DNA from: Naegleria gruberi
Lineage: Eukaryota
Length of the DNA: 64,000 nucleotides
Assembly: GCA_000004985.1 (NCBI GenBank)
Contig: GG738909.1
Strand: one strand, 5' to 3'
Shown here: positions 1-60,309 of the stretch, piece by piece
Numbering within the stretch: position 1 is the stretch's first letter
Layout of the letters: each line of letters opens with the position of its first letter
Made by a program: the position numbers and the translations under genes
The notes under the pieces: model-generated
Seen by the model: the letters and a program-made list of their open reading frames with translations, nothing else
Databases searched by the model: none
What the model was told of the DNA's origin: nothing

Positions 1-471
1 AACCCAAACCCAAACCCAAACCGAAACCCAAACCCAAACCCAAACCCAAACCCAAACCCAAACCCAAAGCCAAACCGAAACCCAAACCCAACCCAAACCC
101 AAACCCAAACCCAAACCCAAACCCAAACCCAAACCCGGACCCAAACCCAAACCCAAACCCAAACCCAAACCCAAACCCAAACCCAAACCCAAACCCAAAC
201 CCAAACCCAAACCCAAACCCAAACCCAAACCCAAACCCAAACCCAAACCCAAACCCAAACCCAAACCCAAACCCAAACCCAAACCCAAACCCAAACCCAA
301 ACCCAAACCCAAACCCAAACCCAAACCCAAACCCAAACCCAAACCCAAACCCAAACCCAAACCCAAACCCAAACCCAAACCCAAACCCAAACCCAAACCC
401 AAACCCAAACCCAAACCCAAACCCAAACCCAAACCCAAACCCAAACCCAAACCCAAACCCAAACCCAAACC
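1..471. repeat. Terminal telomeric repeat array (CCCAAA)n, equivalent to TTTGGG on the G-strand. The C-rich strand is on top, as expected for a left chromosome end. A few variant units (CCGAAA, CCCGGA, CCAAAG) occur within the distal ~140 bp.
   Basis: About 78 tandem hexamers read directly from positions 1-471. The array ends abruptly at ...aaacccaaac|cagatct. Confidence 0.9.
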
Positions 472-26336: not shown

Positions 26337-28128
26337 TCTACTTTCTCCCAATACAACCACCCCTCAACACACCAACACTACTACTGATACTACTGCTACT
26401 GCAACAACCACTAGTGGTACCAACACATCCAACCAAACAACCCTACCACCAATCCAATCTTCTCAGTCATCTCAAAACCTTCTTAATCCGAGTGAAGATG
26501 AATTTATTGTAAAGGTTAGTTTGCGAGAATCAAGAGCCATGTCTCAAAGAAATCTTTCCAGATACAATGGAAAAGAAGGAAAGGAAATGGACGATGCTCC
26601 TCAATCAAAACCAGCATTGGAATTACCAAGACTCGATTTTGATACTCCTAAACCACCAGCTTCCCCAACGGACATGATAAGAAGATCAAGGGAGATGGCT
26701 CTCAAAGAGGATATGGATCTTTTTCATCATGGCCAAAAGAATTACATGGATGATGACGACGACATGGCTATGATTAACTCTATTGAGGAACAAAATACAT
26801 TCATGACTGACAGTATTGACCAGAATGGAACTATTGATTGGAAGAAGGAAGCAGGTATGATGAAACAACGTCAAAGAAGAAATAGTGTCGATATGCCTGT
26901 AGTTGAAGAAGAAGAAGATATGGTCTTAATGAATGAAGATGAAGAAAAGAATCCTTCAGAGGAGGTTATTGCAGAGCAACTTACCTTTATGGAGGAAGAG
27001 ACACCAACCAATACAGACAAACAAAAGTTCCAATTCAACCAATTATTGCAACACCTTAATTCTGAAGTAGAATATAGTGACAAGACTAAAAAGAAGAAGA
27101 AAAAGAAGCACAAGAACAAGGACCACGATAGAATTCAATCACCAAGGGTAAGAGAAAACAGAGAAGAATCAGATGTCATTGAAGAGGATCCAAGTATGAC
27201 TATCACGACAGATCAACAACTATCACTCCAACCAAATGACGGCGCTAAGGTTATCATTGAATTGGATGAACTCTTAGGTATAGGAGCTCACGGTAAAGTT
27301 TACAAGGGATTCATTCCAAATTATATTACAAATACTAAGGATCCAGTTGCTATCAAAAAGTTGAGTGTCAAGGCAGGAAGATTCTCCAAAAAGTTCATCA
27401 AGTTAGAAGTGGACATTCTCAAACAATTATATCACCCATATCTTGTACAATATCTAGGTTGTAAATATAGCTCCAAACTTAAAGAGTACAGCATTGTGCT
27501 CGAGTATGTCGACGGAGGAACACTTGAACATTTTATCAAAACTTCTGGCCCAATGGATGAAAGGACGGTCAGTGTTGTTGTTTCTCAGGTACTTATGGGT
27601 CTTGAATACTTACACTCAAAGAGAATTATTCACAGAGACTTGAAACCAGCCAATATTTTGATTAGTGGTAAGGGTGTTGTAAAGATTACAGATTTTGGTG
27701 TCAGTGCCCAATTATTGAATATTGAAGCTATTAGAACTAGTTGTGTTGGTACACCTCACTATTCTGCTCCTGAAGTTATCATGGTCAAACCGTATAGTTT
27801 CACTGCAGATATCTGGTCTCTGGGCTGTGTTGTTTTCGAATTACTATTTGGAAAGAGACCATACGATGAATTCAATCAAGTTGCTGCCATGTATCACATG
27901 GTCAAAGACGACAAACCACCAATGCCAACTCCAAACAATTTGAGTCCAGTCTGTTTAGATTTTATTGATAAGTGTTGGACCAAGGATTGGAAGAAGAGAC
28001 CTACCGCAAGAGAATTGCAAACCCATCCCTTTGTAAACAACAATGAACATGTTATTCAAAAGTTTGTGAAGAACATGAGACAGTCCCTTATAATGCCTAA
28101 TAACCTCCTTTCTCAACAAACTAATTAA
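26290..28128 (+). CDS. STE-group (STE11/MAP3K-like) serine/threonine protein kinase. The catalytic domain lies in the C-terminal 300 aa and is preceded by T-rich and acidic low-complexity sequence.
   Basis: LGIGAHGKVYKG, AIKK, HRDLKPANILI, DFGVSAQL and GTPHYSAPEV. The frame is open from 26281 (the upstream stop is at 26278-26280), and the first in-frame ATG is at 26536. It probably forms one ~1400-aa gene with 23895-26336. Confidence 0.8.
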   Translation: MQPQENQFPKHKARPNLLSPNTTTPQHTNTTTDTTATATTTSGTNTSNQTTLPPIQSSQSSQNLLNPSEDEFIVKVSLRESRAMSQRNLSRYNGKEGKEMDDAPQSKPALELPRLDFDTPKPPASPTDMIRRSREMALKEDMDLFHHGQKNYMDDDDDMAMINSIEEQNTFMTDSIDQNGTIDWKKEAGMMKQRQRRNSVDMPVVEEEEDMVLMNEDEEKNPSEEVIAEQLTFMEEETPTNTDKQKFQFNQLLQHLNSEVEYSDKTKKKKKKKHKNKDHDRIQSPRVRENREESDVIEEDPSMTITTDQQLSLQPNDGAKVIIELDELLGIGAHGKVYKGFIPNYITNTKDPVAIKKLSVKAGRFSKKFIKLEVDILKQLYHPYLVQYLGCKYSSKLKEYSIVLEYVDGGTLEHFIKTSGPMDERTVSVVVSQVLMGLEYLHSKRIIHRDLKPANILISGKGVVKITDFGVSAQLLNIEAIRTSCVGTPHYSAPEVIMVKPYSFTADIWSLGCVVFELLFGKRPYDEFNQVAAMYHMVKDDKPPMPTPNNLSPVCLDFIDKCWTKDWKKRPTARELQTHPFVNNNEHVIQKFVKNMRQSLIMPNNLLSQQTN

Positions 28129-28825: not shown

Positions 28826-31221
28826 ATGGATCCGAATAGATTGATACAACCAGAAGAGACGTTTGATAAACAAATTGTTTCAAATTTGTCGGTTGATTCC
28901 TCAACATGTGTTTCCGAACACTTTACTTCCTTAACCGATGAAGAAAATTCAAATCAATCTTCATCTCTGGATTATTCCCTCTCCTCAACAAGTAATTCCA
29001 GCAATGGTGGTGCCAATTTTAATTATTCGGTTGAAAATCTCAAACTCTCACTTTCCACGAATGGAAATGTTAATAGTAGCAACAATAGAGTGATGAATGC
29101 ATCATTTATTGATGGAAATGAATCCAATTTGATGAGTGAGAGTTTTGTGAATCATTCTCAAATGATTGTTTCCAATGTTGGTCTTTCGAATTGCAATTCT
29201 CTTCCTGTGGTTGCAGTTCAAGGTTTTAAACTTGGCGAATCTCAACCGAAATCTAATAACATCCTTCCAATAGATAAGGAATCTTGTAAAGATAGTGTAA
29301 ATATTGTAAATAGTATTCAGAAAATCATGGACGAATCTGAGCCATGTATGATAAAGCACGAGAACTTTCGTCCAACTATCAAACTTTCTCCTCAAAAGCA
29401 TGCTCTCTTTTTGAAAAAGAAAAAGATGAACAGAAGAGAATCTATCCTAAACCAAGTCAAACTTTCCTCCAGATTGACTGGAAACAAACATTCGTGTAGA
29501 ATTGGCCCAGCAAAGAGAAAGGATCTCTCACTCGAGCAAATGAAGAGTCAAAGACTAGATAAGAAGAATAATTTTCATTTAGAACTCGATTTGGATATTC
29601 TGTTCACTGAAAAATTGGTTGAGAAACTTCCAATTCTGGTAGAAAGTTCAAATGACATTACCGAAACTGTATTCGAAATGCATGACGAGAAGCAAGCACC
29701 TCCAATCGATGCAACACCAACCAATTCTACCACCACCACCACTTCCCCTCACCATCTCTCTTGTAATTTTTCTTGTAAATATTGTAATGATTTTAATAGA
29801 AACTGTACCATTAATAATTCCATTAAGGAAACTCAACATGAAGTATTTAACATTGTAAAATACAATCTTGTCAAGTTGAAAGACTTGTTAGATTCTGATG
29901 ATTTAGATTTTGAAGATAGTATTGACTCTGTTTTGGAGTCTGACTGTGTTCAAACTTTGATTTCTTATCTGGATACTTCCATTTATGGAAAATACTTTTC
30001 ACTCAAGCAAGAATCTTGTAATAATTGTAAGAGTATGTCAAATTTGAGTATGAAGGATATTTTGTCTCTCCAATTAGTTGCTACACAGGTTGTGAAAAAG
30101 CTTTCATGTGGAAGAATGGATCAAGTTGAAACTCTTGTCACCAAGTTGACCATTACAAAGCTCATTCTCTTAATTAACTCAATGTGTGACTCTATTAGAT
30201 ATGAAGCATTGTGGATTTGTGGAAATTTGGCCAAACATCATCACAATTTCAGAGATGACTTGTTGGATTCTAATGTTTTAAATGAAATTGTAACGTTAAT
30301 TACAGGATTTAGTGGAACAACAGATTTAAATGAAGATACAACATCTCTTTTACGAATGGGTAAGTAATTTATTGGAATTTAGACCAATGGTACTTTTTAG
30401 CCGCTTGGTGCTTTTCCAAATTGTGTTTTGGAACTGTTTTTCCTAAGGAACGTCACATGAGGAAGGAAATTGAATTATTGGACAAGTTTCTTTCGTTTGA
30501 GGATTCGGATATTTTGAAGAATGTTTGTAGAGCTCTAGGAAGATTGATGCTTCCAAAGGAAATGATTGACGTATTCTTAAAGACTGGCAGATTGCCAAAG
30601 ATTGTGGACTTGTTGAAACATGTTGATGATAATGTCATTGGTCAAGCACTTGTGGCAGCTGTCAATATTTCTGCAGGAACTGATGAAGAAACTCAAGAAT
30701 TGGTTACCCTTAATGCCCTTAATGTTTGTTATGATATTTTGAAATCCAACAAATCAAGAACCATCAAGGTAGATGCCATGATTCTTGTCAGCAATATTGC
30801 TGCATGTACTGAAAAACAAGTGGAATGCGCAGTTGAGTGTGGAGTTTTAGAGCTAGTTGCCAATCTATTTCACAATAGAGATACCCATATTGATATGAAG
30901 AAGGAAGCTGTTTGGATATTTTCCAATTCAACTTCTAATGGAACTGAACAACATTTAGAATTATTCACTGAAAAATATCAAATTCTAGTACCTGTTGCCA
31001 AGATGGTTATGAATTGTAATGATACCAATGTTGTTACACTTGGTTTACAAACTCTATTGAGAATTGTTCAATATTATGATGAAGATAAGGAACCAGAACA
31101 GTTGGCTGGAGTTCTTGCAAAACTTAATGAATGTGGCGCAGATAAGTATATTTCCCAGATGGATACCAATAGGTATGGAACTGCTGCCAAGCTCAACAAG
31201 TATTTCACACCAAAAAAGTAA
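28826..31221 (+). CDS. Importin-alpha-like armadillo-repeat protein with a ~400-aa N/S-rich N-terminal extension. Two exons, with a 41-nt intron at 30360-30400 (GTAAGT...TTTAG). The start is the first ATG at 28826; the frame is open from 28619 and the track calls a TTG at 28763.
   Basis: ARM repeats with the importin-alpha signature: ALWICGNLA, the spliced junction ...LLRM|AAWCFSKLCFG (compare NATWTLSNLCR), and EAVWIFSNSTSNGTEQH (compare EAAWAISNATSGGT). Splicing joins track ORFs 28763-30367 and 30421-31221 in frame. Confidence 0.65.
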
Positions 31222-42653: not shown

Positions 42654-44378
42654 ATGTTGCCTTCCTTGTCCGATTTATTTGGGCAAGATGATGGCAAAGA
42701 TGCCAACAAGATGCCTAAACAACAACAGCTTACTATTAGTAATCCATCATCAACCAACAACAACAGCATCAACAACAACATGATGTTTGTGGGGCAACAA
42801 CACCATCATGCAATATTGGCCAATTCCAATAATGGGCTGCAACAAGATATTGCTATGCATCATGTACATGGATCATCTAATGTGAATGCCTTTGATGAAG
42901 CATCTACATCTAAATTTCAGAATTCTGTTGCCAATTATCATCATCAGTTTGTTCCATCGACAAGAACGACATTGGATAGTGTGGGGAGAAGTAGTCAATC
43001 TTTCACTGCTGGTAGTAATAACAATAGTTCAAACTTAAAATCTAATCTTACACCAGCTTTGATACATGCAACATCATGTACTCCAAACATGATGTTTTCA
43101 AAAATAGTGAATAATAGTGGCATGCCAACATCTACATCATTGAGCATGCATGGATCGATGCATTCAACTCATCAACAACAAGTACATGAAATGTCTAAAA
43201 ACAACGATGCATGTTTGCATGTATTTGATACAAAAACAACACCACTACCTAACTTTAGTACTACAACTACCACCACAGCGAGCAATATAAATGGTAGTAA
43301 TCATAGCAATACTAATGGCAATCCACCACCCTCTTCATCTTTGAATTACAAAACACAAGATGCAATACTGCCCAACAATTTATCACCTCCAACAACAAAC
43401 TCTTCCCAACAAATGTACTTTTCTAATCCTATACAATATTCCCCTCAAGCTAACCAATTGCATGCATCCAATAATAATTTAAACAATAGAGGGCAAAATA
43501 ATGGAAATAATAATGATCAAACGGCAATGCATGATTATCAACCTTCTTCCTCTGCTTATATATATGAACGAAATTCACCAATATTGCTTCAAAACGAAGT
43601 TTATAATAATGGAAATGTATCTTCTTCATCATCTACTAATAATACTGCTAGGAACTCATCCACAAAATCAAATGTAAATGATACATCTACTAATGTGGTA
43701 AATACTTCTCAAAATGGATCATTTCCAAGTCGGTTTGAAAATTATCAACATCATGATTTACAATCATCCACACATCCGGTTATTAAGGAAAATCACCTTA
43801 ATACCATTTTTAATGGAATATTTTATGAGGATGCAGAAAATTCGAAACGGAAAATTGAGGATGCAAGTAATTCATCAAGAAAAAAGAGAAAGAATGAAAA
43901 CGAAACGAAACATTCAATTAACAATTCGGAATCATTCATTAATCCACCTTCAATAATTACCACACCTAAATCATTGAATCGCCAATCCAATACCACCAAT
44001 AGCTCTTCTAAGAAAACTAAATCAGAAATTAATAATACGAAACAGCCTCTCAAATCGCCCTCAGGTTTATCAGATAGTTCTACAAATTACGCGACACATA
44101 ATTCACTCTCGACAGTACCACAAAACTCGATTCAATTCATGAACTTCTCGATATCAGACAAATCGAAAATTAAATTTGTGAATGCTAGACATCAACAGAT
44201 AGGAATTAATGACGGTGCATGGACTGAAAAAGAGCATGCAGATTTTATGCGAGGACTAAACGAGTGTGGAAGAGGCAGATGGCGAGAGATTGCCGAAAAC
44301 TATGTTCTCACTAGAACGAGAACTCAGGTAGCCAGCCATGCCCGTAAATATCTAGAAACCCCACCCAATAAAAAGTAG
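42654..44378 (+). CDS. Myb/SANT-domain (SHAQKYF-class, MYB-related) putative transcription factor. The single C-terminal Myb repeat follows ~500 aa of N/S/T/Q-rich low complexity.
   Basis: WTEKEHADFMRGLNECGRGRWREIAENYVLTRTRTQVASHARKYL close to the C-terminus. ATG at 42654. Confidence 0.7.
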   Translation: MLPSLSDLFGQDDGKDANKMPKQQQLTISNPSSTNNNSINNNMMFVGQQHHHAILANSNNGLQQDIAMHHVHGSSNVNAFDEASTSKFQNSVANYHHQFVPSTRTTLDSVGRSSQSFTAGSNNNSSNLKSNLTPALIHATSCTPNMMFSKIVNNSGMPTSTSLSMHGSMHSTHQQQVHEMSKNNDACLHVFDTKTTPLPNFSTTTTTTASNINGSNHSNTNGNPPPSSSLNYKTQDAILPNNLSPPTTNSSQQMYFSNPIQYSPQANQLHASNNNLNNRGQNNGNNNDQTAMHDYQPSSSAYIYERNSPILLQNEVYNNGNVSSSSSTNNTARNSSTKSNVNDTSTNVVNTSQNGSFPSRFENYQHHDLQSSTHPVIKENHLNTIFNGIFYEDAENSKRKIEDASNSSRKKRKNENETKHSINNSESFINPPSIITTPKSLNRQSNTTNSSSKKTKSEINNTKQPLKSPSGLSDSSTNYATHNSLSTVPQNSIQFMNFSISDKSKIKFVNARHQQIGINDGAWTEKEHADFMRGLNECGRGRWREIAENYVLTRTRTQVASHARKYLETPPNKK

Positions 44379-44530
44379 TTCCATAGTTGGAAATCATCCA
44401 ATTTGAGGAGGGTAACCAAACTTGCTTCATTACTATTAAGTTTCGTCTCATTTTCATGGATTTATGAATAGTATTCAATAGATTTTAGAAAAGATGTCGT
44501 TTACATGCACATTCTTTTTTAATTCAATTT

Positions 44531-45384
44531 ATGCTTAACAAATTTGAACTCAATTTTTTAACTAAAAAAAAAATGAGTTTTTCTTATGGACCTTACTATG
44601 CCGTTCACAGAGGAAGAAATCCTGGAGTCTATCTCAAATGGGATGACTGCAAGGAACAAGTACAGGGCTTCTCTGGTAATTGTTACAAGAAATTTTCATC
44701 CATAATATTTGCCGATTGGTTTGTTGAAGAAGGACCAAAGAAATTCAAAAAGAGAATTCGTTTCCATTCCAAAGATTGGGTTTCAAGTGGGAGTGAAGTT
44801 GAGGATTGTTACTATGATGATGATTTATCGGATGCTAATGATGATAGAGAAGTTTATGTTTGTGGAAAACAATTCCGAAAGAGAAGAAAGAATATTGGTG
44901 ATGAAGCGAATGATTGTAGTCATGCTCCTGTTTGTAGATATCATCTGGAGGGAAATTGTCGATTTGGAAGGAATTGCAGATTTTACCATCCTCCAAGAAG
45001 TGTTATCACAAGAATGAAAAGTAATAGTGAAGGAAATAGACATCATCCTAATGATGATCAATAAGCAATAATGAGAATCAAAAACAAAGTAGTAATAGTG
45101 TCGTTAATATTAACGTTAATAATTCTGCAACTTCAAATTCTACTACCACTTGTCCAGGAGCTAATCAAAATGCAAGTAGAAAAGTATGTAGATATTGGTC
45201 ACAAGGAAATTGCAGATTTGGAACGAATTGCTGGTTCTATCATCCAGCACCAGCAGCAATTTCATCATCATTACAAAATAATGTTACTGCTACTAATCCA
45301 TCGAATCAGCAGTCTAGTAATTCAGTAATTGTGAATTCTTCTGTGCCTGCTGAGCAAATTTATTATGATAGTAGTGATAGATGA
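44531..45384 (+). CDS. Protein with an RNase-H1-type N-terminal hybrid-binding domain (HBD / caulimovirus viroplasmin domain) and two CCCH zinc fingers. No RNase H catalytic domain is present. Reading through to the second finger needs either an intron (about 45021 or 45027 to 45157) or a -1 frameshift, so the end coordinate depends on that choice.
   Basis: HBD: SFSYGPYYAVHRGRNPGVYLKWDDCKEQVQGFSGNCYKKFSS (compare YAVxxGRxPGIYxxWxECxxQVxGYxGAxYKxF). Finger 1 is CRYHLEGNCRFGRNCRFYHP in the 44531 frame. Finger 2 is CRYWSQGNCRFGTNCWFYHP, in a frame shifted by -1 and open from 45058 to the TGA at 45382-45384. Either donor candidate (45021 GTAATA or 45027 GTGAAG) paired with acceptor CAG at 45155-45157 gives an intron length of 2 mod 3 that restores the frame. 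Confidence 0.55.
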
Positions 45385-45826
45385 TGGAGATGATTACTAT
45401 GGTGGAAGCTCGTTTAATTATGGAATGAGTTTTAATGATCTAAATATGTTGTTGTCTTATGGAGTGAAACCGTGGGATGATGATGCTGATGATTTGCTTG
45501 ATTTTCTTCATGAAATGTAATTGAATCTTTGGAATTCCTTAAAGAAATTGGTGTAAAATCTCAACATTAAGATTTTGTTCTTTACATTTACAACTGTCAA
45601 AAATAATATTCAAATATCATTCTAATGATAATTAATTCTAGAATTGGCAACAAACAAATTTAGAGCGATATCAAATTCTTGCCAAAATTGGACGTATAAA
45701 GAAAGAATTATTAATTGAAGAAGAAATTTAAATGATTAATCTCTAATCTTGTCAATTTTCTGACCACAGTTTGTAAATTGTAAATAATTCGTGCTCACGT
45801 TTCGAATAACAATTTATCAAAACAAA

Positions 45827-46033
45827 ATGGGTCAACGAAACACCAAGAAACCAGACACTCAAGAACCTGAAAATGAAACTGTATCCACTGACCTCATTGA
45901 TTGTGTAAATCTCATCATTAATGGTCAAGAATATGTCCTTATTGAAAACCATTGGGAAAACATTGAATTGAAACAAGATCCTTTATCTTATCTTTCACAG
46001 GAAGTGGAAAAATGCAAGCTATCCTCTTGGTAA
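45827..46033 (+). CDS. Possible small (68-aa) N-myristoylated protein (MGQRNT...). Hypothetical.
   Basis: ATG in an A-rich context (caaaacaaaATGg). The N-terminus fits MGxxxS/T. The track ORF starts further upstream at a GTG. No homology was recognised. Confidence 0.3.
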   Translation: MGQRNTKKPDTQEPENETVSTDLIDCVNLIINGQEYVLIENHWENIELKQDPLSYLSQEVEKCKLSSW

Positions 46034-46358
46034 CACACAACGATGATTACTATTTCAAAAGCTTTAAGGCATTACTGCCATTTTGATTATCCTTTCAATT
46101 ATAGAGAACTCTCATTCGTATATTATCATTGAACAAAGAGGTCTCATCGAAGATTAATGTTGAAATCAAATTCCACACCTTAATATATCAATTATATCAA
46201 GAGAATCATCATCAGTACGGGTTGCGGTCATTTCGTCGAACAATTCACAGAGGAAGCACTTTCACACTTTCTCTTCTGCTGAACCAAATATAAAAAACTT
46301 CAAAATATTTGAATAATTTTTTAAAAATTTTAAGATTGAAAAAAAATTCATCATCACA

Positions 46359-47801
46359 ATGACCAAGAAGAACACATCATCATCAGCAAGCTCATCCGCA
46401 TCAAAGAAGAAATCAGGAGGTGGTGGTGACGATGATATGAAATTCCTCATGGAAATGCAAAAGAAGAATGAAAAGGAAACAGTCAAACAACAACAACAAT
46501 CGAATGGATCATCGAAAAAACAAACCACCAAACAACCAAAAGATTGGCCTTCCGAACAAACTCAACCAGAACCTACAGTCCCAATCAAGTATTTATTCAA
46601 GGATGAGAAATTCCCACAGGGTGAAATTTGTGAATTAGGAACCTATGATTATAAAACCAAGAGATTTCATCCTTCCGAATTGAAGGAAGGAGCACAAGAA
46701 AAGGATGAAAAATTACAAGAACGTCTCCAGGAGGCTAGACATGCTGCTGAAGTTCACAGAACTGCTAGAAAATGGTTCAAGACTATTGTTAAACCTGGAA
46801 TGAAAGTTATTGATGCTGCTGAAACTTATGAAAATAAGGTTAGAGAATTATTGGAAGCTGATAAGAAAAAGTCTGGACTTGCTTTCCCATTGGGTTGTTC
46901 ATTGAATCATGTTGCTGCTCACTATACACCAAATAGTGGAGATGAAACTGTTATTGGAAAGGATGATGTGATTAAATTCGATTTGGGAACTCATGTTAAT
47001 GGTACAATTATTGATTCTGCATTCACAATGTGTTGGAATGATCAATATCAACCATTATTGGATGCTGTCAAAGATGCCACTAATATGGGTGTTAAGGCTG
47101 CTGGTATTGATGTCAGATTAGGTGATGTTGGTGCTGCCATTCAAGAAGTTATGGAATCTTATGAAGTTGTATGTGTTATTTTGAATACTTTGATTTATTA
47201 ATATTTTTGGATTTCAATTATTTCAATTATTTCAATTATTTGAAATTCACAAATATTCAATTAATTTATTGAACAAATTAATAATGGAATATAATAGACA
47301 ATTAATGGAAAGACTCACAAGGTTAGAAGTATTGAAAATTTGTGTGGTCACTCTGTTGAAAGATATCGTGTCCATGCTGGTAAATCAGTTCCAATTGTTG
47401 CTACTGAAGAAAATACCAAGATGGAAGAAAATGAATTTTTCGCTATTGAAACTTTCGGTTCTACTGGTAAGGGTTACATCAATGAAGAAGGTGTCTGTTC
47501 ACATTATGGCAGAGAATACACATACAATGGTGATGGTTCTGAATTGAGAAATAAGGATTCTAAAGATTTACTCAAAGTTATCAATGAAAACTTTGGATCC
47601 ATTCCTTTCTGTCGTAGATACTTGGACAGAATTGGCCAAAAGAAATATCTTACTGCTCTTCGTGATTTGGTAAACAATGGTATTGTCAATGAATATCCAC
47701 CATTGGTTGATGTTAGAGGTTGTTACACTGCTCAATTCGAGCATACTATTTTCTTGAGACCAACCTGCAAGGAAGTTTTGAGTAGAGGATCCGACTATTA
47801 A
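46359..47801 (+). CDS. Methionine aminopeptidase 2 (MetAP2). Two exons, 46359-47168 and 47298-47801, with a 129-nt intron at 47169-47297 (GTATGT...TATAG). The N-terminal poly-K and acidic block is typical of MetAP2.
   Basis: [35 protein letters not shown] and [11 protein letters not shown]|[34 protein letters not shown]. Also [12 protein letters not shown] and [24 protein letters not shown], nearly collinear with human METAP2. Confidence 0.9.
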
Positions 47802-48924
47802 ATGCATTTTACAAAAATCTCCTTTAAGAATATAATACAACAACACGACAACTGTAGTCGACATTTTTGACATGTCATGTAGTTCTGTAGTGGAACTATA
47901 TGATGGACTGTACGACTCATCAACTCTAGTTTCTAACACGAATCTGATGGATGCAAAAATGTCATTCAAAATAAATAATCCCAATTCCTTCCTCTAATTT
48001 CAACGATTCTACTTGCATTTCCTCCAATTCACTTGGAACTAAGGTGTAAACTCTCTAATTCCTAGGTTTAAATCCTTAAAGAAACTCTCAAAGTGAACAA
48101 CCTTTGGACATCCTTGGACATTTTTCGTTCTCTTTCCATCTTCACAACAATAACCACCACAATCCAATGGACATCCTCATGATATCCTCGTGCCATCAAG
48201 ATCGATCTCAGTAGTAGCACCAACGACGAATGAATCAATTAAAGAGATCAACTACGACACTTTAAAGCGATTTGTACGACCATTCAATGCGCTCAAAAAG
48301 CGTTGTTCTATGTTTTTTTTAATATGCAATAATCTGCTTAACAACGAACGTCCATTAATAAAGCGTTCTATTCATGCTTGGGGAATTTTCGCGCCCAGCG
48401 GCCCATAAATGAAAAAACTTTTCAAGTTTGAAATCTTTTCAAATATTATTGAAAAAAAACACACAACATTGATCACCTTCAAGTTCAAAGCACGTGAATT
48501 GCTGCTTACGAGAAGATTTTGAATCAAGTTTGAGATTCAATTAAAGATATCGAATTTTTTGAGTTTTGGATTGACTAATTTCAATTCATATACAAAATAG
48601 GTGAATTAACAATTCAGATTGTACAGCATAGAATCGAGTTTCAAATCCTAATATATAAAAAGAGCAATTTAATCATAGACTAATAACAATGATACCAACA
48701 TCCTCCTCCTCATTGCCGTCATCATCATTACTCTCAAAGATTACTCCACAACAGGAACAACAAATTGAGGATGGAGAAGAAGAATTAACTGAATACAATG
48801 CATTATCAATAACAAAACCTCATGATCATCATCAGCAGCAGCACACCAGCAGCATTCAGTTTCACCCTCAACTACCTCCACTTCTTCATCAGCATCAATA
48901 GATGAAAGTTATAAGTGCTACGAA

Positions 48925-50184
48925 ATGTCCACCACTATTCACGATAATACAACACATGGAGAGCACTTAGAAGTTAAATCTCCACTGTTCATACAGCAGA
49001 ACACTTCAAAATCATCATCATCAACAACCTATTATAGTAGTTACGACCATGTACAAATACAAACAGTAGAAATGACCAAGGCAGAGAATGCGAAATTGTT
49101 TGGAAATGCAGTGGATTGGATATTGAATGCGATTGTGTTGCCAGTGCTCAATTGGACTAGTATTCCAATATTGATATTTTTCATATTGATGAGCAACTTT
49201 CAATTGATTGCTTTTGAATGGTTATTCGAATCTGAGGGAGATTTTTTCAATACTGTAGATTTTGATATCATTGCAACAATTGACAAGTATTTAATGTTTG
49301 GATTGGCAATGCCACACGAATTGTTGGCCAATTTGTATCATCCATTCTTGGATGTCTTCTTTGCCATTCCATATCTGGCTCACTTTGTCTATCCACTTGC
49401 AGTTTATCCAGTCATTGTTTGCATTTTCCTGTGGAAACCTAACAGAGAATCATTGAAAGAAACAGTCATCATACCAACCTATCAAATGCTTCGACGATTC
49501 ATCCCTGGAAAGAGTTCGACCAATGAATCTTCACTCAATGATGATATTGTTTCGTCCTACACTGGAAATTCAACCGATTCCTCCATCTCTCCAAAATATC
49601 AAGTTTCTAACTACAAACTCAAATGCTACTTACTCTCATTGGGTGTCATTTCAATCATTCAGGTTACATTATGTTTCTTCTTCCCAACAGCGCCACCTTG
49701 GTTCAGAGATAACACCATTAAATATGAAGAATACTATGAGATGATTGGTGATGCAACACTCGATATGCCACTTCCAGTCTTTCCACTCTATGCACCAGAG
49801 GCAAGATTTGAAATGGTTGATCGTTTAATTGGTTATGAATTATTTGCAGGAATTTATGGAAAGGGAACTATCAAGTTTGGAAGTTTCTACTCCCTTCATG
49901 TTGGTTGGACTGCCATTATTACCTTTATTGAACTATTTGTTGTTTATAAGCAAGAATCAAATGTTGATGAAGAAAGTTTGACAAGAAGTGAAAAGAGTGG
50001 AAAATCTTGGACTTTTTATCAAATATTCATGATTCAATATTTGGTTTGGATTTTCCTGGCGAGTATGTACTCTGCTCATCACTTTATGATTGATGGACTT
50101 GTGGCAGTCGTGCTGGCAGTTATTATTACAAAATTGTCAACCATGATTATTAAGAATGATTCAAAACCAAAAAAAGAAAATTAA
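48925..50184 (+). CDS. PAP2-superfamily multi-pass membrane protein resembling inositol-phosphorylceramide synthase (AUR1) or sphingolipid synthase. An upstream ORF at 48689-48901 in another frame may be an N-terminal extension (frameshift) or may be unrelated.
   Basis: About 6 TM helices. Phosphatase-like C2 and C3 motifs FYSLHVGWTAI and SAHHFMIDGLVAV (SxH ... HxxxD). ATG at 48925. Confidence 0.5.
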   Translation: MSTTIHDNTTHGEHLEVKSPLFIQQNTSKSSSSTTYYSSYDHVQIQTVEMTKAENAKLFGNAVDWILNAIVLPVLNWTSIPILIFFILMSNFQLIAFEWLFESEGDFFNTVDFDIIATIDKYLMFGLAMPHELLANLYHPFLDVFFAIPYLAHFVYPLAVYPVIVCIFLWKPNRESLKETVIIPTYQMLRRFIPGKSSTNESSLNDDIVSSYTGNSTDSSISPKYQVSNYKLKCYLLSLGVISIIQVTLCFFFPTAPPWFRDNTIKYEEYYEMIGDATLDMPLPVFPLYAPEARFEMVDRLIGYELFAGIYGKGTIKFGSFYSLHVGWTAIITFIELFVVYKQESNVDEESLTRSEKSGKSWTFYQIFMIQYLVWIFLASMYSAHHFMIDGLVAVVLAVIITKLSTMIIKNDSKPKKEN

Positions 50185-54804: not shown

Positions 54805-57800
54805 ATGCAAAGTCTTAGCCCTACGGGAGGTTCAAGTGTAGATATTAAAAAGTTAGCCTCTGTAGGATCATCGGCCTCTTTGATATCTGCGAGAGGACAT
54901 CAGGAGAGTGCCATGTCTTCGGTTTCTGGAAGTAAGGACTGGTCTAATTTGTCAGTCTTTTCATCATTTATCAATAATTCGACTTTTCCAATTGAGGATT
55001 TACATAATGTTGCACAAGCTTTAAAGCCTCCGGAAAAGACGATTCCATCCTCTTCGCAAAAGGGACCAACAATATTTCCTAAATATCAAAAGAAGATTTT
55101 GATTAAATTTAAGGGAAGAACTTTCATCGATATTCCTTACTATCCTTACGTGAATGATGATGCGGAAACAGAATCAACAACATCAAAATCACCAGGACCA
55201 AACCAAAAGAAGAAACCTTCATCAGCATCAGGAAAACGACCTGGATCTTCTAATAGTACTAAAAAGGGAGCAAATAATTCTGCCATTTCTACAGAGAGTA
55301 ATACAACTACCAATGATGATGGTTCAATTCAAAAATTGTGGGAACACAGAGTGGTTTATTTTGTAGCAAGTAATTATGGAGGAAGTACAGGTTTTGTGGA
55401 ACTACATCAAACACTAATTGACTCACAAGAGTATAACATCGAGAAGGAACATACCATCTACATGGAAACCTTACAAGATTTAGTTTATTTCGAATCTTGC
55501 CCATTTGTATCATTTGTAATTAGAAGAGAATTTGATCCTGCCACACCTCCAACAACTGTAGAAAAGAAAAAGTCTTCTAAAAAGGAAGCAACTCCATCAA
55601 ATGCTGGAAATAAGAAAGATAATACACCTCCTGCACCAGGTCTTCCAGCAACAAATACCACAAAAAAGGTACAGAATAATATTGGTTCAGCAAATCAAAT
55701 ACCTTTGGAAGAACTACAGGAAGGAATGATTGCTGATATTAAGGCAGCTTTTGGAAGTCATTGCGAGATTCTCCATTCTTACAGAGCTTCGACAATTCCA
55801 CTATTTGTAAATGACAAGTTTGGCTATACAAAATGCAAATATGAATTTGTTTATAGTCCAAAGTACAAATATTGGTCTTCATTGTTAGACACTAAGAGCG
55901 AAACAGCCTCGAATGGTTTTGATGAGTCATTTAAATCAGAAGGTATTTCATCTGCAAGATTCAGTGTCAATGCCTTGTCATTTACGCCACCACAAGATTA
56001 TAGTGAATTTATGCACAATATTAATATTAGGTTTGAGGTAGCTGAAGGAGCAAGCATTCTCTCGGAAGATGTTCAAAACAAACTCAATCCAATGATGGTT
56101 TCAATTTCTTCACTGAAGGATCTCCCAAATGAAAGCTACCTATCTGATAGATGTAAGCCTGTTTCTGTATCGTATTCCATCAGAGGTAAAACTTTCAAAA
56201 CAAAGGGCTATCACCATGATTCACTGATTAATCTTGGCTATCAAAGGATTATTTATCTGGGAAATTCAAATGAGATGGAAATGTACAGAGATTATTTTAT
56301 CAGAATGCCAATAGTTTTCGAGACACACGACAGAGACCCTAAGGATGGTATCGCCAAGTTCTTTGGTAAATCAGAGGTAGCTCTTAAAACGTTAATTTTA
56401 AACTCTAGGGGAAGAGATATTTCAGACAATTTCCAAATTCAAGGCTACACAATACTACCAGACGAATACGAGAAGGCTGTAAAAAGAATTGAAGAGGAAA
56501 AGAAAAAGGCTCAAACTCAAGAAGAGGAAAAGAAGGCCAAACCGAACACAAAATCTCCAAAGAATTTGAATATGAAGAGTCCGTCTGTTGAATCTCCAAA
56601 GAATTCTCTCAATGATTCTGTATTTACTGTAGAGTATTCCATATTTGAGGGAAAATATGTCGAAAAGAAGAGTTCGATAAAGATTCAACTCAGATTTAAT
56701 ACACCATTCCCACAATTTACAGAGACTGAGAAGAGTACATATCCAATCATTTTAACCTTTGATTGGGAGAATGCCAATCTAATTCAAAAAACAGAACAAA
56801 TATTTAATCAATTTTTCATTAAGCCAATGCCAGCAAAGAGTCGATCAGATTTGTTTGGTGGCATGCCAAATTCAGGAACTATGAATGGTGGAGGAGCAAA
56901 TCTTTCTCCAGTCAATCAATTTAATACTCTGTCATTATCTCCAGAATCGGCTTCCTCAGACATGACTCCAGGAGGAAAGAATTCAGGAAAGGATGTTTTC
57001 AAACACTTTTGTGGATTTGAAATTTGCGATGGTAAGAAACGTTTAATGGTTATTGAGGCCACCTCAAAAGATGCCTTCAGGTACCTTACAGGGCATTTAG
57101 AAAAATACATATCCAAAGAAAATCAACCTGTAAATATAATGTATGACCCAACCTATTTCTATTCGAATAGACTCTATGAACAGCTTGTGCTTGGACCTAA
57201 ATCAGATAGGGCAGAAGATAAAAAGCCAGCTGGAAGGAGATCATCTGTTCAAATTGAGATTGATCAAAAGAAGCCAATCATTAGATTGAGACTCCAAGAT
57301 ACATTTGAAAATATCCTCTCCACAAAAGATATGTACATTAAGAACAAAAAGTCAGAGGATGTCAAGATACTATCAGCATTATCCAAATTGAATCACATCT
57401 TTATGGTGGACACTATTAATCAAGTGATTGAAAACAGTCTCCTTCCAGATTCCTCCCTCTTGATGAATATTAAGGAGAGACATTGTGATGACGGCCTAAT
57501 TGAAATTGATTCAATTATTGCTAATAACCAAAAGAAGAGACAAGAAGAAGAACAAATGCACACCAAACATATGAAGGACAAGGCAACAGAGGAGTTGTAC
57601 AAATCACCTCAAACTGTTGAAGATTTGGCTCTTCACTTGGGAGAGGAAATTGGTTTCGAGGGTATTCCACTCATTGAAACACCTCAACATTTACCTCCTC
57701 CAGAGAAGGTCTTATTTGAAGGGGAAGAGAAGAGAAAGAAGAATAGAATCAAGAACTGGAAGACAAATCCTTCAGGATTCTCTCTGGATGAAGTATCTGC

Positions 57801-58557
57801 ACCAGAGAAGAAATACTGGCTTTATATTCCTCATTTGAAAGGACATCTCATTGCCTCCTTCCCACCAATGGCAAAAGAACTTCCACCATACAATTTGCAC
57901 AGCTATATGACTGGTGTGTTGGTTCGTTCTGATAGAAAACATCCACCTCCAAAAATCAGAGCCTACACAGCTTTTGGAAGTCCTGGAACAAAGAATAGAA
58001 AACCTGAAATTACCATATCTCCGGATACAATATATTGCATTTTAGTTTCATCATGGACTCAAAGAGCTAGCACTCGAGTTGATAATCAACTTGATTCAAA
58101 GATTAGACAATCTCTCAAGAGAGCAGTTGGTTCACCAGGAAAGAACTACATTAGAGGAAATTTTTCCACAGTTAGAGAGCTATCCCAACAATCCTCCATG
58201 TATAAACAGCAAGAAGAAGTGGAAAGATCAAGCAAAAAATTCATTACAGTTCCAACCTATCCAGACCAGCGAAAGCAAACAGAAAAGTCAATCGAATACA
58301 GAAATACAGCACCTCCAACCAACAAGCCAACCTGGGTTAAAAGAGGTAAAACCTCTTCCGTGGAGGACAATAGACATCCAAAGAAACCAGATCAAGCCAG
58401 AATTGATGAACTCAACATGATTGACCTCTTTGACAAAACCCTAGAATCACACCGAGAAAACAAGAGCACACTCTTCTCCCCAAGAGGAGTAGCTCAAGAA
58501 GTAGTACCACCACCCAATCCACCAAACCTCTCCATCAAACTCCCTAAGCTTAAATAA
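54805..58557 (+). CDS. Large 1250-aa protein of unknown function. It has low-complexity S/T/K/P-rich linkers between predicted globular segments.
   Basis: Single 3.75-kb ORF with an ATG in an A-rich context and protein-like composition. No family was recognised. Confidence 0.6.
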   Translation: MQSLSPTGGSSVDIKKLASVGSSASLISARGHQESAMSSVSGSKDWSNLSVFSSFINNSTFPIEDLHNVAQALKPPEKTIPSSSQKGPTIFPKYQKKILIKFKGRTFIDIPYYPYVNDDAETESTTSKSPGPNQKKKPSSASGKRPGSSNSTKKGANNSAISTESNTTTNDDGSIQKLWEHRVVYFVASNYGGSTGFVELHQTLIDSQEYNIEKEHTIYMETLQDLVYFESCPFVSFVIRREFDPATPPTTVEKKKSSKKEATPSNAGNKKDNTPPAPGLPATNTTKKVQNNIGSANQIPLEELQEGMIADIKAAFGSHCEILHSYRASTIPLFVNDKFGYTKCKYEFVYSPKYKYWSSLLDTKSETASNGFDESFKSEGISSARFSVNALSFTPPQDYSEFMHNINIRFEVAEGASILSEDVQNKLNPMMVSISSLKDLPNESYLSDRCKPVSVSYSIRGKTFKTKGYHHDSLINLGYQRIIYLGNSNEMEMYRDYFIRMPIVFETHDRDPKDGIAKFFGKSEVALKTLILNSRGRDISDNFQIQGYTILPDEYEKAVKRIEEEKKKAQTQEEEKKAKPNTKSPKNLNMKSPSVESPKNSLNDSVFTVEYSIFEGKYVEKKSSIKIQLRFNTPFPQFTETEKSTYPIILTFDWENANLIQKTEQIFNQFFIKPMPAKSRSDLFGGMPNSGTMNGGGANLSPVNQFNTLSLSPESASSDMTPGGKNSGKDVFKHFCGFEICDGKKRLMVIEATSKDAFRYLTGHLEKYISKENQPVNIMYDPTYFYSNRLYEQLVLGPKSDRAEDKKPAGRRSSVQIEIDQKKPIIRLRLQDTFENILSTKDMYIKNKKSEDVKILSALSKLNHIFMVDTINQVIENSLLPDSSLLMNIKERHCDDGLIEIDSIIANNQKKRQEEEQMHTKHMKDKATEELYKSPQTVEDLALHLGEEIGFEGIPLIETPQHLPPPEKVLFEGEEKRKKNRIKNWKTNPSGFSLDEVSAPEKKYWLYIPHLKGHLIASFPPMAKELPPYNLHSYMTGVLVRSDRKHPPPKIRAYTAFGSPGTKNRKPEITISPDTIYCILVSSWTQRASTRVDNQLDSKIRQSLKRAVGSPGKNYIRGNFSTVRELSQQSSMYKQQEEVERSSKKFITVPTYPDQRKQTEKSIEYRNTAPPTNKPTWVKRGKTSSVEDNRHPKKPDQARIDELNMIDLFDKTLESHRENKSTLFSPRGVAQEVVPPPNPPNLSIKLPKLK

Positions 58558-58612: not shown

Positions 58613-60309
58613 ATGAACGACAAGACACTTGTGGGCAAACTCGACAAGTTAACCAACACACAACAATCTATTCAAGGTTTGTATTGGTGATGATAGCATG
58701 ATGATTCGAGCAAGAACGGAATGATTTATATATTTATAAAATGTATCAACAACAATATGTTTTTATGATAAATGATCAAATTGGTTGAAAATATAATGAT
58801 GAATAATGATGACAATAACAATAATTTGTGTTGGAATTTTGTACGGAATGTATTCATGTGATTACACTTGATCCAAAATATCATGTAATGAACACTTGTT
58901 TGAACAACAACAAATTAGCCTTGTCACTTTGGGTTATTTACCACGTCAAGAAGGCTCAAGAAATTGTTTCCATTTGGGCTAGAGAAGCTAAGAAGGCAGC
59001 ACCAAATAGAAAATTATGCTATTACTACTTGGCCAATGATGTTATTCAAAATTCGAGAAAAAAGACCAATGCTTTTGTTGAACAATTTCAAGCAGTGCTA
59101 CCAGGATCACTCCGAGATAACATCTCACTCATGACAGAGAAGGATCGTAAGTCCTTGCAACGTATTTTCAGTATTTTGGAGGAGAGAAAGATTTTCACAG
59201 CTGATTTTTCGAGTGAGTGCAAGAGTGTTATTGATGGATCGCTTGGAGGTTCATCATCTAATACTTCCTCTGATAATTCTCGTAGTAGTGGTAGTGGTAA
59301 AGAAAGATCATCCGAGTCAAATCCTCTTAAGAGAGAAAGACCAAGCAGTAGTAATACTTCGTCATCTTCCAATGATGCCTTGACATTACTTGCCAACACA
59401 AATTCTGTTGTTAAAAGTCTTGTACAATTCAATGAAATTGTTCAAGCTAATCGTGTCGATCAAAAAAATTTCACAGATAATGATAAACTTGTTCAAGAAT
59501 GTAAACAACGAGTATTGGATAGACATGAATTGAGAGAAGATCAATTGGGTAAGTACATTTGTGGAAATGTGGATATATTTCTGTACTTTGAAAAATCAAA
59601 AACTAACTCGATAATTTTCAAATTAAATTTTCATTCATCCATTAATATATTTTCATTATTTAATCACATTCATTAATAATTTAGCTCATTCAACACCTTT
59701 CACATTAAAACAATTACAAGGTGATGTTGAAGGAGTGCTCACAAAATGCTCTGATTATAAATTTGCGCTTGCAAAGGAAAATAACAAACGAAAGGAATAT
59801 ATGACAGCACTAGAACAAGAATTGAACGAACAGAGAAACTTGTTTAATCAGTATAATGACTTGATTAAAGTATGTAGAACATGCAATGTTTTTAAAACTA
59901 ATCTCTTAAAACCTTACTTAAGGAATGGAATGATAATTACCTTGTCGATTTGCAAAAAATCTCAACCTCTCTCGAAATTCATCTCAATAGCAAACAATTC
60001 AATGGTAATGATGACGATGTATTGACGGGAGGTAATCAAGATGATGGCGATATTGTTGTTCCAACTTATTCTGATGACTTTTTCAAAGTGGATGAAGATG
60101 AGGTAGAGCCATCAAATAAAAAGTTGAAAACAGAACCAAGTTATGACGAAGATAATGAAGATTTATTCACTGAAACTAAGCCTATTTCTACAACCAATAC
60201 ACTCAATTTGGTTAACTCTATATTGAGTGCATTAGGAAACAAGAATACCAGTGGTTCTCACCAACCATCAGAGGAGTATGAACCTAATGAATATCCACCA
60301 TTCGATTAA
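58613..60309 (+). CDS. RPRD1/Rtt103-like CID-domain protein (RNA polymerase II CTD-interacting, regulation of nuclear pre-mRNA). Four exons: 58613-58676, 58919-59548, 59685-59869 and 59923-60309. Introns are 242 nt (GTTTGT...TTAG), 136 nt (GTAAGT...TTTAG) and 53 nt (GTATGT...TTAAG).
   Basis: Exon 1 (MNDKTLVGKLDKLTNTQQSIQ) spliced to ALSLWVIYHVKKAQEIVSIWAREAKKAAPNRKLCYYYLANDVIQNSRKK aligns with the human RPRD1B N-terminus (EKKLSELSNSQQSVQTLSLWIIHH...KLTFLYLANDVIQNSKRK). The C-terminal coiled-coil and acidic tail are restored by the two downstream introns, and all junctions are in frame. Confidence 0.7.

What the first reader, a model, noticed from the sequence alone, without database searches (positions are those of the whole stretch)
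44531..45384. RNase-H1-type hybrid-binding domain fused to tandem CCCH fingers, with the second finger reachable only through an intron or frameshift
The N-terminus is a clear RNase H1 HBD (Cauli_VI fold: YAVxRGRxPGVYxxWxxCxxQVxGFSG), but no RNase H catalytic domain follows. Instead there are two CX5-CX4-CX3-H-type CCCH fingers, which suggests an RNA:DNA-hybrid or dsRNA-binding CCCH protein. The second finger lies in the -1 frame beyond the annotated stop at 45062-45064. An intron from 45021 (GTAATA) or 45027 (GTGAAG) to the CAG at 45157 (137 or 131 nt) restores the frame; a -1 frameshift is the alternative. The domain combination appears uncommon.
Basis: partly seen in the sequence, partly recalled or inferred. 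Interest (0 to 1): 0.5.

Follow-up and report, generated by a model that had tools for sequence, protein, structure and literature searches.

The report
Indel-broken hybrid-binding CCCH zinc-finger gene
This is a Naegleria gruberi gene for a small protein that joins an RNase H1-type RNA:DNA-hybrid-binding domain to two CCCH zinc fingers and a conserved acidic tail; here its reading frame is broken by two tiny deletions, not by an intron, so it is a modest curiosity and an annotation problem rather than a new mechanism.

Summary
The window is Naegleria gruberi DNA that starts at a telomere. ORF 44531/44573-45064 encodes a Cauli_VI/RNase H1 hybrid-binding domain (Pfam E 1.6e-17) and one CCCH finger. 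A second CCCH finger lies in another frame (45058-45384). No RNase H catalytic domain is present.

The favoured intron is not supported. A 98%-identical, syntenic Naegleria metagenome contig (L001) carries the gene as one uninterrupted 316-codon ORF. Relative to it the window lacks 1 nt at 45056/57 and 2 nt at 45379/80. After the second gap the original frame resumes and runs to 45520.

Both gaps fall inside peptide stretches conserved in a 45%-identical orthologue. The proposed donors (GTAATA, GTGAAG) do not fit the GTAAGT/GTATGT donors of six local introns. No slippery site exists.

The reference model NAEGRDRAFT_53145 is a chimera of the upstream Myb gene with the truncated ORF.

The HBD + 2xCCCH + tail architecture is rare but conserved in Heterolobosea, including Acrasis kona. 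Whether the deletions are real (truncated allele or pseudogene, which I favour) or assembly errors cannot be settled without reads.

The parts
44573..45056 (+). CDS segment 1 in the original frame: start codon, HBD, acidic linker and CCCH finger 1, up to the 1-nt gap
   Evidence: ORF and translation. Colinear with L001 34-517. Orthologues P0004, P0005 and P0044 start at the equivalent Met.
44591..44725 (+). RNase H1-type hybrid-binding domain (Cauli_VI)
   Evidence: PF01693 E 1.6e-17. PDB sequence matches: yeast RNase H1 N-domain 1qhk (1.2e-10) and human HBD 3bsu (7.6e-8). The Tyr, Trp, aromatic and Lys-Lys positions align. AF2 pLDDT is about 76 for the b-b-a-b-a unit of P0004.
44933..44989 (+). 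CCCH finger 1: CRYHLEGNCRFGRNCRFYH, C-x7-C-x5-C-x3-H
   Evidence: PF18044 E 1.6e-6. Spacing.
45056..45064 (+). Site of the missing base (between 45056 and 45057: GATG-ATCAA here, GATGCATCAA in L001) and the resulting premature TAA at 45062-45064
   Evidence: Pairwise alignments.
45058..45379 (+). CDS segment 2, displaced by one base: N/S-rich linker, CCCH finger 2, S/N-rich linker
   Evidence: Open segment 45058-45384. Colinear and in frame in L001.
45187..45243 (+). CCCH finger 2: CRYWSQGNCRFGTNCWFYH, C-x7-C-x5-C-x3-H
   Evidence: PF18044 E 2.4e-6. Spacing.
45379..45384 (+). Site of the missing two bases (between 45379 and 45380: GATA--GATG here, GATAGTGATG in L001) and the TGA at 45382-45384 that closes the displaced frame
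   Evidence: The gap lies inside SDSDDGDD, which is conserved as SDSDSGED in P0005.
45380..45520 (+). CDS segment 3, back in the original frame: acidic stretch, C-terminal motif and TAA stop
   Evidence: Open segment 45335-45520. Only one substitution (45408) against L001 over this stretch.
45413..45517 (+). Conserved C-terminal motif FNYGMSFNDLNMLLSYGVKPWDDDADDLLDFLHEM, predicted helix-loop-helix
   Evidence: It is the best-conserved block of alignments A1, A2 and A5. AF2 predicts helices 288-296 and 306-315 with pLDDT about 72. No Pfam or PDB family matches.
44375..44610 (+). Pseudo-intron of the public gene model NAEGRDRAFT_53145. It joins the Myb gene (42654-44374) to the truncated ORF and removes the Myb stop codon and the first 13 residues of the HBD protein.
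   Evidence: P0007 equals the Myb ORF plus the translation of 44612-45061.

Best explanation
The locus is an intronless Naegleria gruberi gene for a roughly 316-residue protein. Its order is an RNase H1-type hybrid-binding domain (no nuclease), an acidic linker, CCCH finger 1, a low-complexity linker, CCCH finger 2, an acidic Ser/Asp stretch, and a conserved C-terminal helix-loop-helix motif.

In this genome sequence two small deletions cut the ORF into three frame segments: -1 nt at 45056/57 and -2 nt at 45379/80. The second finger is out of frame because of the first deletion, not because of an intron.

I take the deletions to be real differences of the sequenced strain. As written, the copy stops at 45064. 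It is then either a pseudogene or null allele, or at most encodes a 163-residue stub with the HBD and one finger. The net -3 is a coincidence, because each deletion runs into a stop within three codons.

Inferred mechanism of the intact protein, not shown here: the HBD docks on an RNA:DNA hybrid or A-form duplex, the two well-separated CCCH fingers hold single-stranded RNA, and the acidic C-terminal motif recruits a protein partner. That would make it a non-catalytic reader or adaptor for hybrid- or duplex-containing RNA.
For: Organism: two window ORFs are exact matches to N. gruberi proteins.

Domains. The HBD aligns to 1qhk and 3bsu with the Tyr, Trp, aromatic and Lys-Lys positions kept. From my knowledge of the human HBD-hybrid structure, these correspond to the hybrid-contacting Y29, W43, F58, K59 and K60.

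Indels:
- L001 is syntenic (MetAP2 with its intron lies downstream) and 97.9% identical over 3.85 kb. It has one 316-codon ORF.
- The window differs from that ORF by exactly two gaps.
- Inserting 1 + 2 bases gives a 951-nt ORF with no internal stop, colinear with P0004.
- Orthologues P0005 and P0006 are also single ORFs on their contigs.

Evidence that the deletions are real:
- Neither gap lies in a homopolymer.
- The same comparison shows 12 further indels in non-coding DNA, mostly non-homopolymer, so small indels are a normal kind of difference between these two lineages. There are none in 1,313 nt of MetAP2 exons.
- The public protein model built on the reference assembly ends at the same premature stop.
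- dN/dS between the window and L001 is 0.41 (7 non-synonymous, 4 synonymous), which suggests weak constraint.

Family: HBD + CCCH + tail also occurs in Acrasis kona KAL0482325.1 and in metagenomic relatives.
Against: No reads or transcripts could be examined, so an assembly or consensus error cannot be excluded. Two frame-breaking changes that sum to -3 within 323 nt of an otherwise well-preserved gene are also what consensus errors would look like: the fingers and the tail show no amino-acid change against L001, and the HBD shows only one conservative D/E change.

Six of the 11 coding substitutions cluster at 45046-45147 beside the first gap. This could mark either a fast-evolving linker or a low-quality stretch.

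The dN/dS estimate rests on only 11 substitutions.

The function is inferred from domain homology only. AF2 models were confident only for the HBD and the tail.
Confidence: 0.55

Rival explanations
1. Assembly or consensus error. The gene is intact in the sequenced strain, and the two missing stretches (1 nt and 2 nt) are artefacts of the draft assembly. The true product is the full 316-residue protein.
For: - The gaps sum to -3 and lie 323 nt apart.
- The fingers and the tail are identical in protein sequence to the intact L001 copy, and the HBD differs only by D24E.
- Substitutions cluster next to the first gap.
- Another pair of overlapping ORFs without intron signals at 26290-26336 might be a further frameshift in this assembly.
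Against: - Neither gap is in a homopolymer or an obvious compression context.
- Non-coding DNA shows many similar real-looking indels between the two lineages.
- Two independent errors in 950 nt would be unusual for a Sanger-based draft. That the assembly is Sanger-based is my recollection of the N. gruberi genome project, not something tested here.
- No intact N. gruberi copy turned up in the protein collection.
Confidence: 0.33
2. Spliceosomal intron or introns. An intron of 131-137 nt from 45021/45027 to 45157 joins finger 1 to finger 2. A second intron would then be needed to reach the C-terminal motif.
For: - GT..AG boundaries exist and restore the frame.
- The size is within the local intron range of 41-136 nt.
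- In L001 the same interval is 138 nt, so its removal would also keep the frame there.
Against: - The interval is open and in frame in L001 and lies within a single uninterrupted ORF.
- Part of it is recognisably conserved as protein in P0005.
- The donors GTAATA and GTGAAG differ from GTAAGT/GTATGT, which six of six local introns use. G+C is 30%, against 15-28% for those introns. The acceptor lacks a T-rich tract.
- Twenty alternative GT..AG pairs work equally well.
- For the second junction, none of the 13 frame-restoring GT..AG pairs has a consensus donor, and all of them delete residues conserved between P0004 and P0005.
Confidence: 0.05
3. Programmed ribosomal frameshifting or another recoding event reads through both frame changes.
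For: The frames overlap by only 7 nt at the first junction (45058-45064) and by 50 nt at the second, so a shift would have to happen at a defined place.
Against: - There is no X XXY YYZ slippery heptamer in GATGATCAATAA.
- Two shifts of opposite sign would be needed.
- The 98%-identical relative and all orthologues need no shift.
- As far as I know, no such mechanism is known for Naegleria nuclear genes.
Confidence: 0.02

Closest known systems
Eukaryotic RNase H1 (human RNASEH1, yeast Rnh1): N-terminal hybrid-binding domain
   Same: The N-terminal roughly 45 residues are a clear member of the same domain family: PF01693 E 1.6e-17, 1qhk 1.2e-10, 3bsu 7.6e-8. The aromatic and Lys-Lys positions are retained.
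   Different: There is no RNase H catalytic domain, either in the window or in the intact orthologues. CCCH fingers and an acidic tail follow instead.
Acrasis kona KAL0482325.1 ('ribonuclease H', 182 aa) and metagenomic relatives P0004, P0005, P0006, P0017, P0019
   Same: They have the same order of parts: HBD, two CCCH fingers, an acidic Ser/Asp stretch and a GVKPWDDDA-type C-terminal motif. All are uncharacterised.
   Different: Those copies are intact single ORFs, whereas the window copy is split by two deletions. The Naegleria proteins have much longer low-complexity linkers (316-320 aa against 175-182 aa). The 'ribonuclease H' name of the Acrasis entry is not backed by a catalytic domain.
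NAEGRDRAFT_53145 (EFC38240.1 / XP_002670984.1), the public N. gruberi model covering this locus
   Same: It uses the same DNA and ends at the same TAA, 45062-45064.
   Different: It is a 724-aa fusion of the upstream Myb gene with the truncated ORF through a 236-nt pseudo-intron. It lacks the first 13 residues of the HBD protein, finger 2 and the C-terminal motif.
Tandem CCCH RNA-binding proteins (ZFP36/TTP-type TZF; muscleblind)
   Same: The fingers are CCCH knuckles with aromatic residues. The best PDB sequence matches for them are muscleblind-like fingers, at E 5e-7 to 1e-2.
   Different: The spacing is C-x7-C-x5-C-x3-H. From my knowledge, TTP-type fingers are C-x8-C-x5-C-x3-H pairs 18 residues apart. 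Here the two fingers are 66 residues apart, so they do not form a compact tandem unit.
Fungal and algal CCCH proteins ending in the same C-terminal motif (Basidiobolus ORY07080.1, Ank+2xCCCH; Lactarius, Hydnomerulius and Dentipellis, TPR+CCCH; Edaphochlamys HYH03_009370)
   Same: They share the terminal GFTxxE(V/L)xxLLxxGVKPWDDDAxxxLxxL block, usually preceded by CCCH fingers and an acidic run.
   Different: They have no HBD and carry other N-terminal modules (ankyrin, TPR). The function of the motif is unknown: no Pfam, PDB or literature match was found.

Membership tests
RNase H1 (enzyme family) | N-terminal hybrid-binding domain (Cauli_VI fold) | tested here: met
   PF01693 E 1.6e-17. Matches to 1qhk and 3bsu.
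RNase H1 (enzyme family) | C-terminal RNase H catalytic domain (PF00075, DEDD active site) | tested here: not met
   No PF00075 or PF13456 hit in any frame segment, in the intact orthologue P0004, or in the ORFs up to the next gene. This is not an RNase H.
Heterolobosean HBD-CCCH-tail proteins (defined here from orthologues) | HBD at the N-terminus | tested here: met
Heterolobosean HBD-CCCH-tail proteins (defined here from orthologues) | Two C-x7-C-x5-C-x3-H fingers in one reading frame | tested here: not met
   Both fingers are present, but finger 2 is displaced by a 1-nt gap. The DNA is orthologous, but the ORF as written is not intact.
Heterolobosean HBD-CCCH-tail proteins (defined here from orthologues) | C-terminal LLxxGVKPWDDDAxxxLxxL motif | tested here: met
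   Encoded at 45413-45517, identical to P0004 and P0005 in the core. It is reachable only after the second gap.
   However, 20 such pairs exist, so this is weak evidence.
   Six local introns have GTA[AT]GT donors and 15-28% G+C. The candidate has GTAATA or GTGAAG and 30% G+C.
   The interval is open, in frame and inside a single ORF in L001. It is partly conserved as protein in P0005. RNA data are not available with these tools.
Programmed -1 ribosomal frameshift | Slippery heptamer in the frame overlap, and the shift conserved in relatives | tested here: not met
   The overlap 45058-45064 (TCAATAA) has no X XXY YYZ heptamer. The relatives are unshifted.
TTP/ZFP36-type tandem zinc finger | Two C-x8-C-x5-C-x3-H fingers separated by about 18 residues with conserved lead-in | tested here: not met
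   The spacing is C-x7-C-x5-C-x3-H and the fingers are 66 residues apart. The family definition comes from my own knowledge.
Pseudogene / null allele | Frame-disrupting lesions confirmed in the organism's DNA, not only in one assembly | not testable with these tools
   Only the assembly sequence and the protein model derived from it are available. No reads were available.

The most novel reading that the evidence does not exclude
The intact protein may represent an undescribed class of non-catalytic RNA:DNA-hybrid (R-loop) or duplex-RNA readers. In this reading an RNase H1-type HBD is wired to CCCH single-strand-RNA fingers and to a short acidic C-terminal docking motif (GFTxxE(V/L)xxLLxxGVKPWDDDA). 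That motif is conserved from Heterolobosea to fungi and green algae at the ends of otherwise different CCCH proteins. It would then be a general, still unnamed eukaryotic adaptor motif linking RNA-binding fingers to a common partner.
Probability: 0.2. Interest if true: 0.55.

Novelty: new variant of a known kind. Interest (0 to 1): 0.25.

Why it matters
Practical points:
- The public N. gruberi model for this locus (NAEGRDRAFT_53145) is a chimera. It hides a separate gene.
- The locus should be re-annotated either as a frameshifted or disrupted gene, or corrected if reads show an assembly error.

Biological points:
- HBDs are almost always attached to an RNase H nuclease. A conserved family that keeps the hybrid-binding module but swaps the nuclease for CCCH fingers suggests a non-degradative way of recognising RNA:DNA hybrids or structured RNA in heteroloboseans.
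- The C-terminal GVKPWDDDA motif is widespread in eukaryotic CCCH proteins. It has no entry in Pfam or PDB and no hit in the searched literature, so it is a small, testable lead.

None of this is a new mechanism, and the intron or recoding angle that made the finding look unusual does not hold.

Tried and rejected
- Exact-sequence look-ups of the 177-aa and 163-aa ORFs and of neighbouring ORFs. The target ORFs are not in the collection, but the look-up identified the organism.
- The look-up of encoding contigs for the neighbouring gene found nothing.
- The JGI metagenome scan with the family alignment gave 15 loci. All were HBD-only or CCCH-only relatives (for example L019, a high-GC fungal FG-nucleoporin-like CCCH gene), with no further Naegleria alleles.
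- The viral contig scan gave HBD-only hits.
- Two AlphaFold runs on three-sequence alignments gave mean pLDDT 41 and 40. They were usable only for the HBD and the terminal helices, so I ran no fold search.
- A profile of the C-terminal motif against PDB gave only a non-significant Exo1 match (E 0.055). Against Pfam it gave nothing meaningful.
- Literature searches returned nothing for 'hybrid binding domain' + CCCH + RNase H1, for the locus tag, or for the motif string.
- dN/dS between the window and L001 rests on too few substitutions to separate a pseudogene from a fast-evolving linker.
- I looked at a possible second frameshift elsewhere in the window (26290-26336) as a gauge of assembly quality. 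Pfam could not tell whether the two ORFs are one gene.

Full report
**Origin of the window.** Two long ORFs of the window are exact matches to Naegleria gruberi proteins: NAEGRDRAFT_73932 at 48925-50184 and NAEGRDRAFT_73934 at 54805-58557. The window starts with arrays of a telomere-type CCCAAA hexamer. G+C is about 34% throughout. The finding therefore lies in a eukaryotic nuclear gene about 44.5 kb from a chromosome end.

**Check of the observation.**
- The ORF 44531-45064 exists.
- Pfam finds in it a Cauli_VI / RNase H1 N-terminal domain (E 1.6e-17, 63.9 bits) and one CCCH finger (E 1.6e-6).
- One frame over, the segment 45058-45384 is open and contains a second CCCH finger (E 2.4e-6).
- No RNase H catalytic domain is found in any piece, in the intact orthologue, or in ORFs up to the next gene, which is MetAP2.
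- Two corrections are needed. Both fingers are C-x7-C-x5-C-x3-H, not CX5-CX4-CX3-H. The gene also does not end at 45384: the original frame is open again from 45335 to 45520 and encodes ...DDGDDYYGGSSFNYGMSFNDLNMLLSYGVKPWDDDADDLLDFLHEM.

**What breaks the frame.**
- A search with the conceptual three-segment protein returned P0004, 316 aa and 97% identical over the full length.
- P0004 is encoded on a 3,853-nt metagenome contig (L001) as a single uninterrupted ORF. The same MetAP2 gene, split by its intron, follows it.
- L001 aligns to window 44539-48424 at 97.9% identity.
- Within the coding region the window differs from L001 by 11 substitutions and exactly two gaps. One base is missing between 45056 and 45057 (GATG-ATCAA against GATGCATCAA). 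Two bases are missing between 45379 and 45380 (GATA--GATG against GATAGTGATG).
- Filling the gaps gives a 951-nt ORF with no internal stop, colinear with P0004.
- The first gap creates the TAA at 45062-45064. The second returns the sequence to the original frame but by itself gives TGA at 45382-45384.
- More distant orthologues are also single ORFs on their contigs: P0005 (45% identical, 320 aa) and P0006 (175 aa).
- Both gaps fall in peptide stretches recognisable in P0005: NDASISN against NAASPSN, and SDSDDGDD against SDSDSGED. Both sites are therefore coding sequence.

**Why it is not an intron.**
- Six convincing introns in the window all begin GTAAGT or GTATGT, are 41-136 nt long and have 15-28% G+C. 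They are 14953-15006, 19618-19663, 30360-30400, 47169-47298 in MetAP2, 59549-59684, and 63234-63189 on the minus strand.
- The proposed intron begins GTAATA or GTGAAG, has 30% G+C (coding-like) and lacks a T-rich tract before its CAG.
- Twenty different GT..AG pairs restore the frame at the first junction. Thirteen do so at the second, none with a consensus donor, and all remove residues that P0004 and P0005 share.
- One caveat remains. The protein-level conservation and the splice-site mismatch carry the argument.

**Why it is not programmed frameshifting.** The frames overlap by only 7 nt at the first junction (TCAATAA), with no slippery heptamer. A second shift of opposite sign would also be needed, and the close relative needs neither.

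**Real lesion or assembly error.** This cannot be settled here.

For real deletions:
- Neither gap is in a homopolymer.
- The same alignment shows 12 other indels, all in intergenic or intronic DNA and mostly non-homopolymer. There are none in 1,313 nt of MetAP2 exons. Small indels are thus an ordinary kind of difference between these lineages.
- The coding region has 11 substitutions in 948 nt, against 2 in 1,313 nt of MetAP2 exons.
- dN/dS is 0.41 (7 non-synonymous, 4 synonymous).
- The public protein model ends at the same stop.

For an error:
- The gaps sum to -3.
- The fingers and the tail carry no amino-acid change, and the HBD only one conservative D/E change.
- Six substitutions cluster within 100 nt of the first gap.

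I put about 0.55 on real lesions (pseudogene, null allele or truncated stub) and about 0.33 on assembly error. Naegleria strains are reported to be diploid or polyploid with heterozygosity (PMC9928731), so an intact second allele is possible.

**Annotation.** The exhaustive profile search recovered P0007, which is EFC38240.1 / XP_002670984.1, NAEGRDRAFT_53145, 724 aa. It consists of the whole upstream Myb protein (42654-44374) joined through a 236-nt 'intron' (44375-44610, GTAGTT...CACAG) to 44611-45064. The model removes the Myb stop codon and the first 13 residues of the HBD protein. All orthologues start as free-standing proteins with Met-x(1-6)-YYAV, so the model is a chimera.

**The protein family.**
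- Among the 150 best of 9,362 hits in 1.84 billion representatives, 60 have an HBD only and 83 have CCCH only. Six have both, all with the same order of parts. Five of these six also keep the C-terminal motif (P0017 ends before it): P0004, P0005, P0006, P0017, P0019 and P0044.
- P0044 is Acrasis kona KAL0482325.1, annotated 'ribonuclease H', 182 aa, with no catalytic domain. The architecture is therefore conserved across Heterolobosea.
- Two relatives keep the HBD and the tail but have no fingers (P0117, P0122).
- Others keep the fingers and the tail but have no HBD. Examples are Basidiobolus ORY07080.1 with ankyrin repeats, basidiomycete proteins with TPR repeats, and a green-algal fragment.
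- The shared tail has the consensus GFTxxDVxxLLSYGVKPWDDDAxxxLxxL. It is predicted as helix-loop-helix with pLDDT about 72. It matches no Pfam family, no PDB chain significantly, and no paper in the searched library.

**Likely mechanism (inferred).**
- The HBD aligns to the yeast and human RNase H1 HBDs with the Tyr, Trp, aromatic and Lys-Lys positions kept. From my knowledge of the human HBD-hybrid structure, these are the residues that contact the hybrid. Binding of RNA:DNA hybrid or A-form duplex is therefore the best guess.
- The two CCCH fingers resemble muscleblind-type RNA-binding fingers most closely. They are 66 residues apart, so they would act as separate single-strand RNA contacts.
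- The acidic Ser/Asp run and the terminal motif look like a protein-docking element.
- The intact protein would then be a non-catalytic adaptor that brings a partner to hybrid- or duplex-containing RNA.
- In this window, as written, only the HBD plus finger 1 could be made.

**Verdict.** The feature that made it look unusual, a finger reachable only by splicing or recoding, is explained by two small deletions in an otherwise ordinary intronless gene. Interest is low to moderate. The value lies in correcting the annotation and in flagging an uncharacterised HBD-CCCH family and a widespread unnamed C-terminal motif.

Noticed in passing
window 1-471 and 1164-1604: There are two separate arrays of a telomere-type hexamer (AACCCA/CCCAAA, about 79 and 74 copies, 97% matches), with roughly 690 nt of other sequence between them. 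The window starts at a chromosome end that carries an internal second repeat block.
   Followed up: partly
window 42654-45064: The public model NAEGRDRAFT_53145 (724 aa) fuses the Myb-domain gene (42654-44378) to the truncated HBD ORF through a 236-nt pseudo-intron (44375-44610). The two should be separate genes.
   Followed up: yes
window 45413-45517; also P0105, P0244, P0263, P0273, P0165, P0089: The C-terminal motif GFTxxE(V/L)xxLLxxGVKPWDDDAxxxLxxL ends many otherwise different eukaryotic CCCH proteins: ankyrin+CCCH in Basidiobolus, TPR+CCCH in basidiomycetes, and green-algal fragments. It has no Pfam, PDB or literature match.
   Followed up: partly
window 26290-26336: ORF 23895-26336 (813 aa, no Pfam hit) and ORF 26290-28128 (which contains a protein kinase domain) overlap by 47 nt in different frames, with no GTA[AT]GT donor nearby. 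This may be another frameshift in one gene, or simply two adjacent genes.
   Followed up: partly
window 45791-46033; L001 1291-1491: A small ORF starting MGQRNTKK... lies between the HBD gene and MetAP2 and is also called as a gene on the related contig. A 20-nt indel sits near its end (46026). It has no Pfam match.
   Followed up: partly
L004 541-670: The contig encoding P0006 (CCCH-HBD-CCCH-tail) has an additional HBD-like stretch just upstream of the called start. That gene may be longer, with two HBDs, or may itself be interrupted.
   Followed up: no
window 46359-47801: The MetAP2 gene (Peptidase_M24) is split by a 130-nt intron with 15% G+C (47169-47298, GTATGT...ATAG). Its exons differ from the related contig at only 2 of 1,313 positions. 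It served as the local standard for introns and for constraint.
   Followed up: yes
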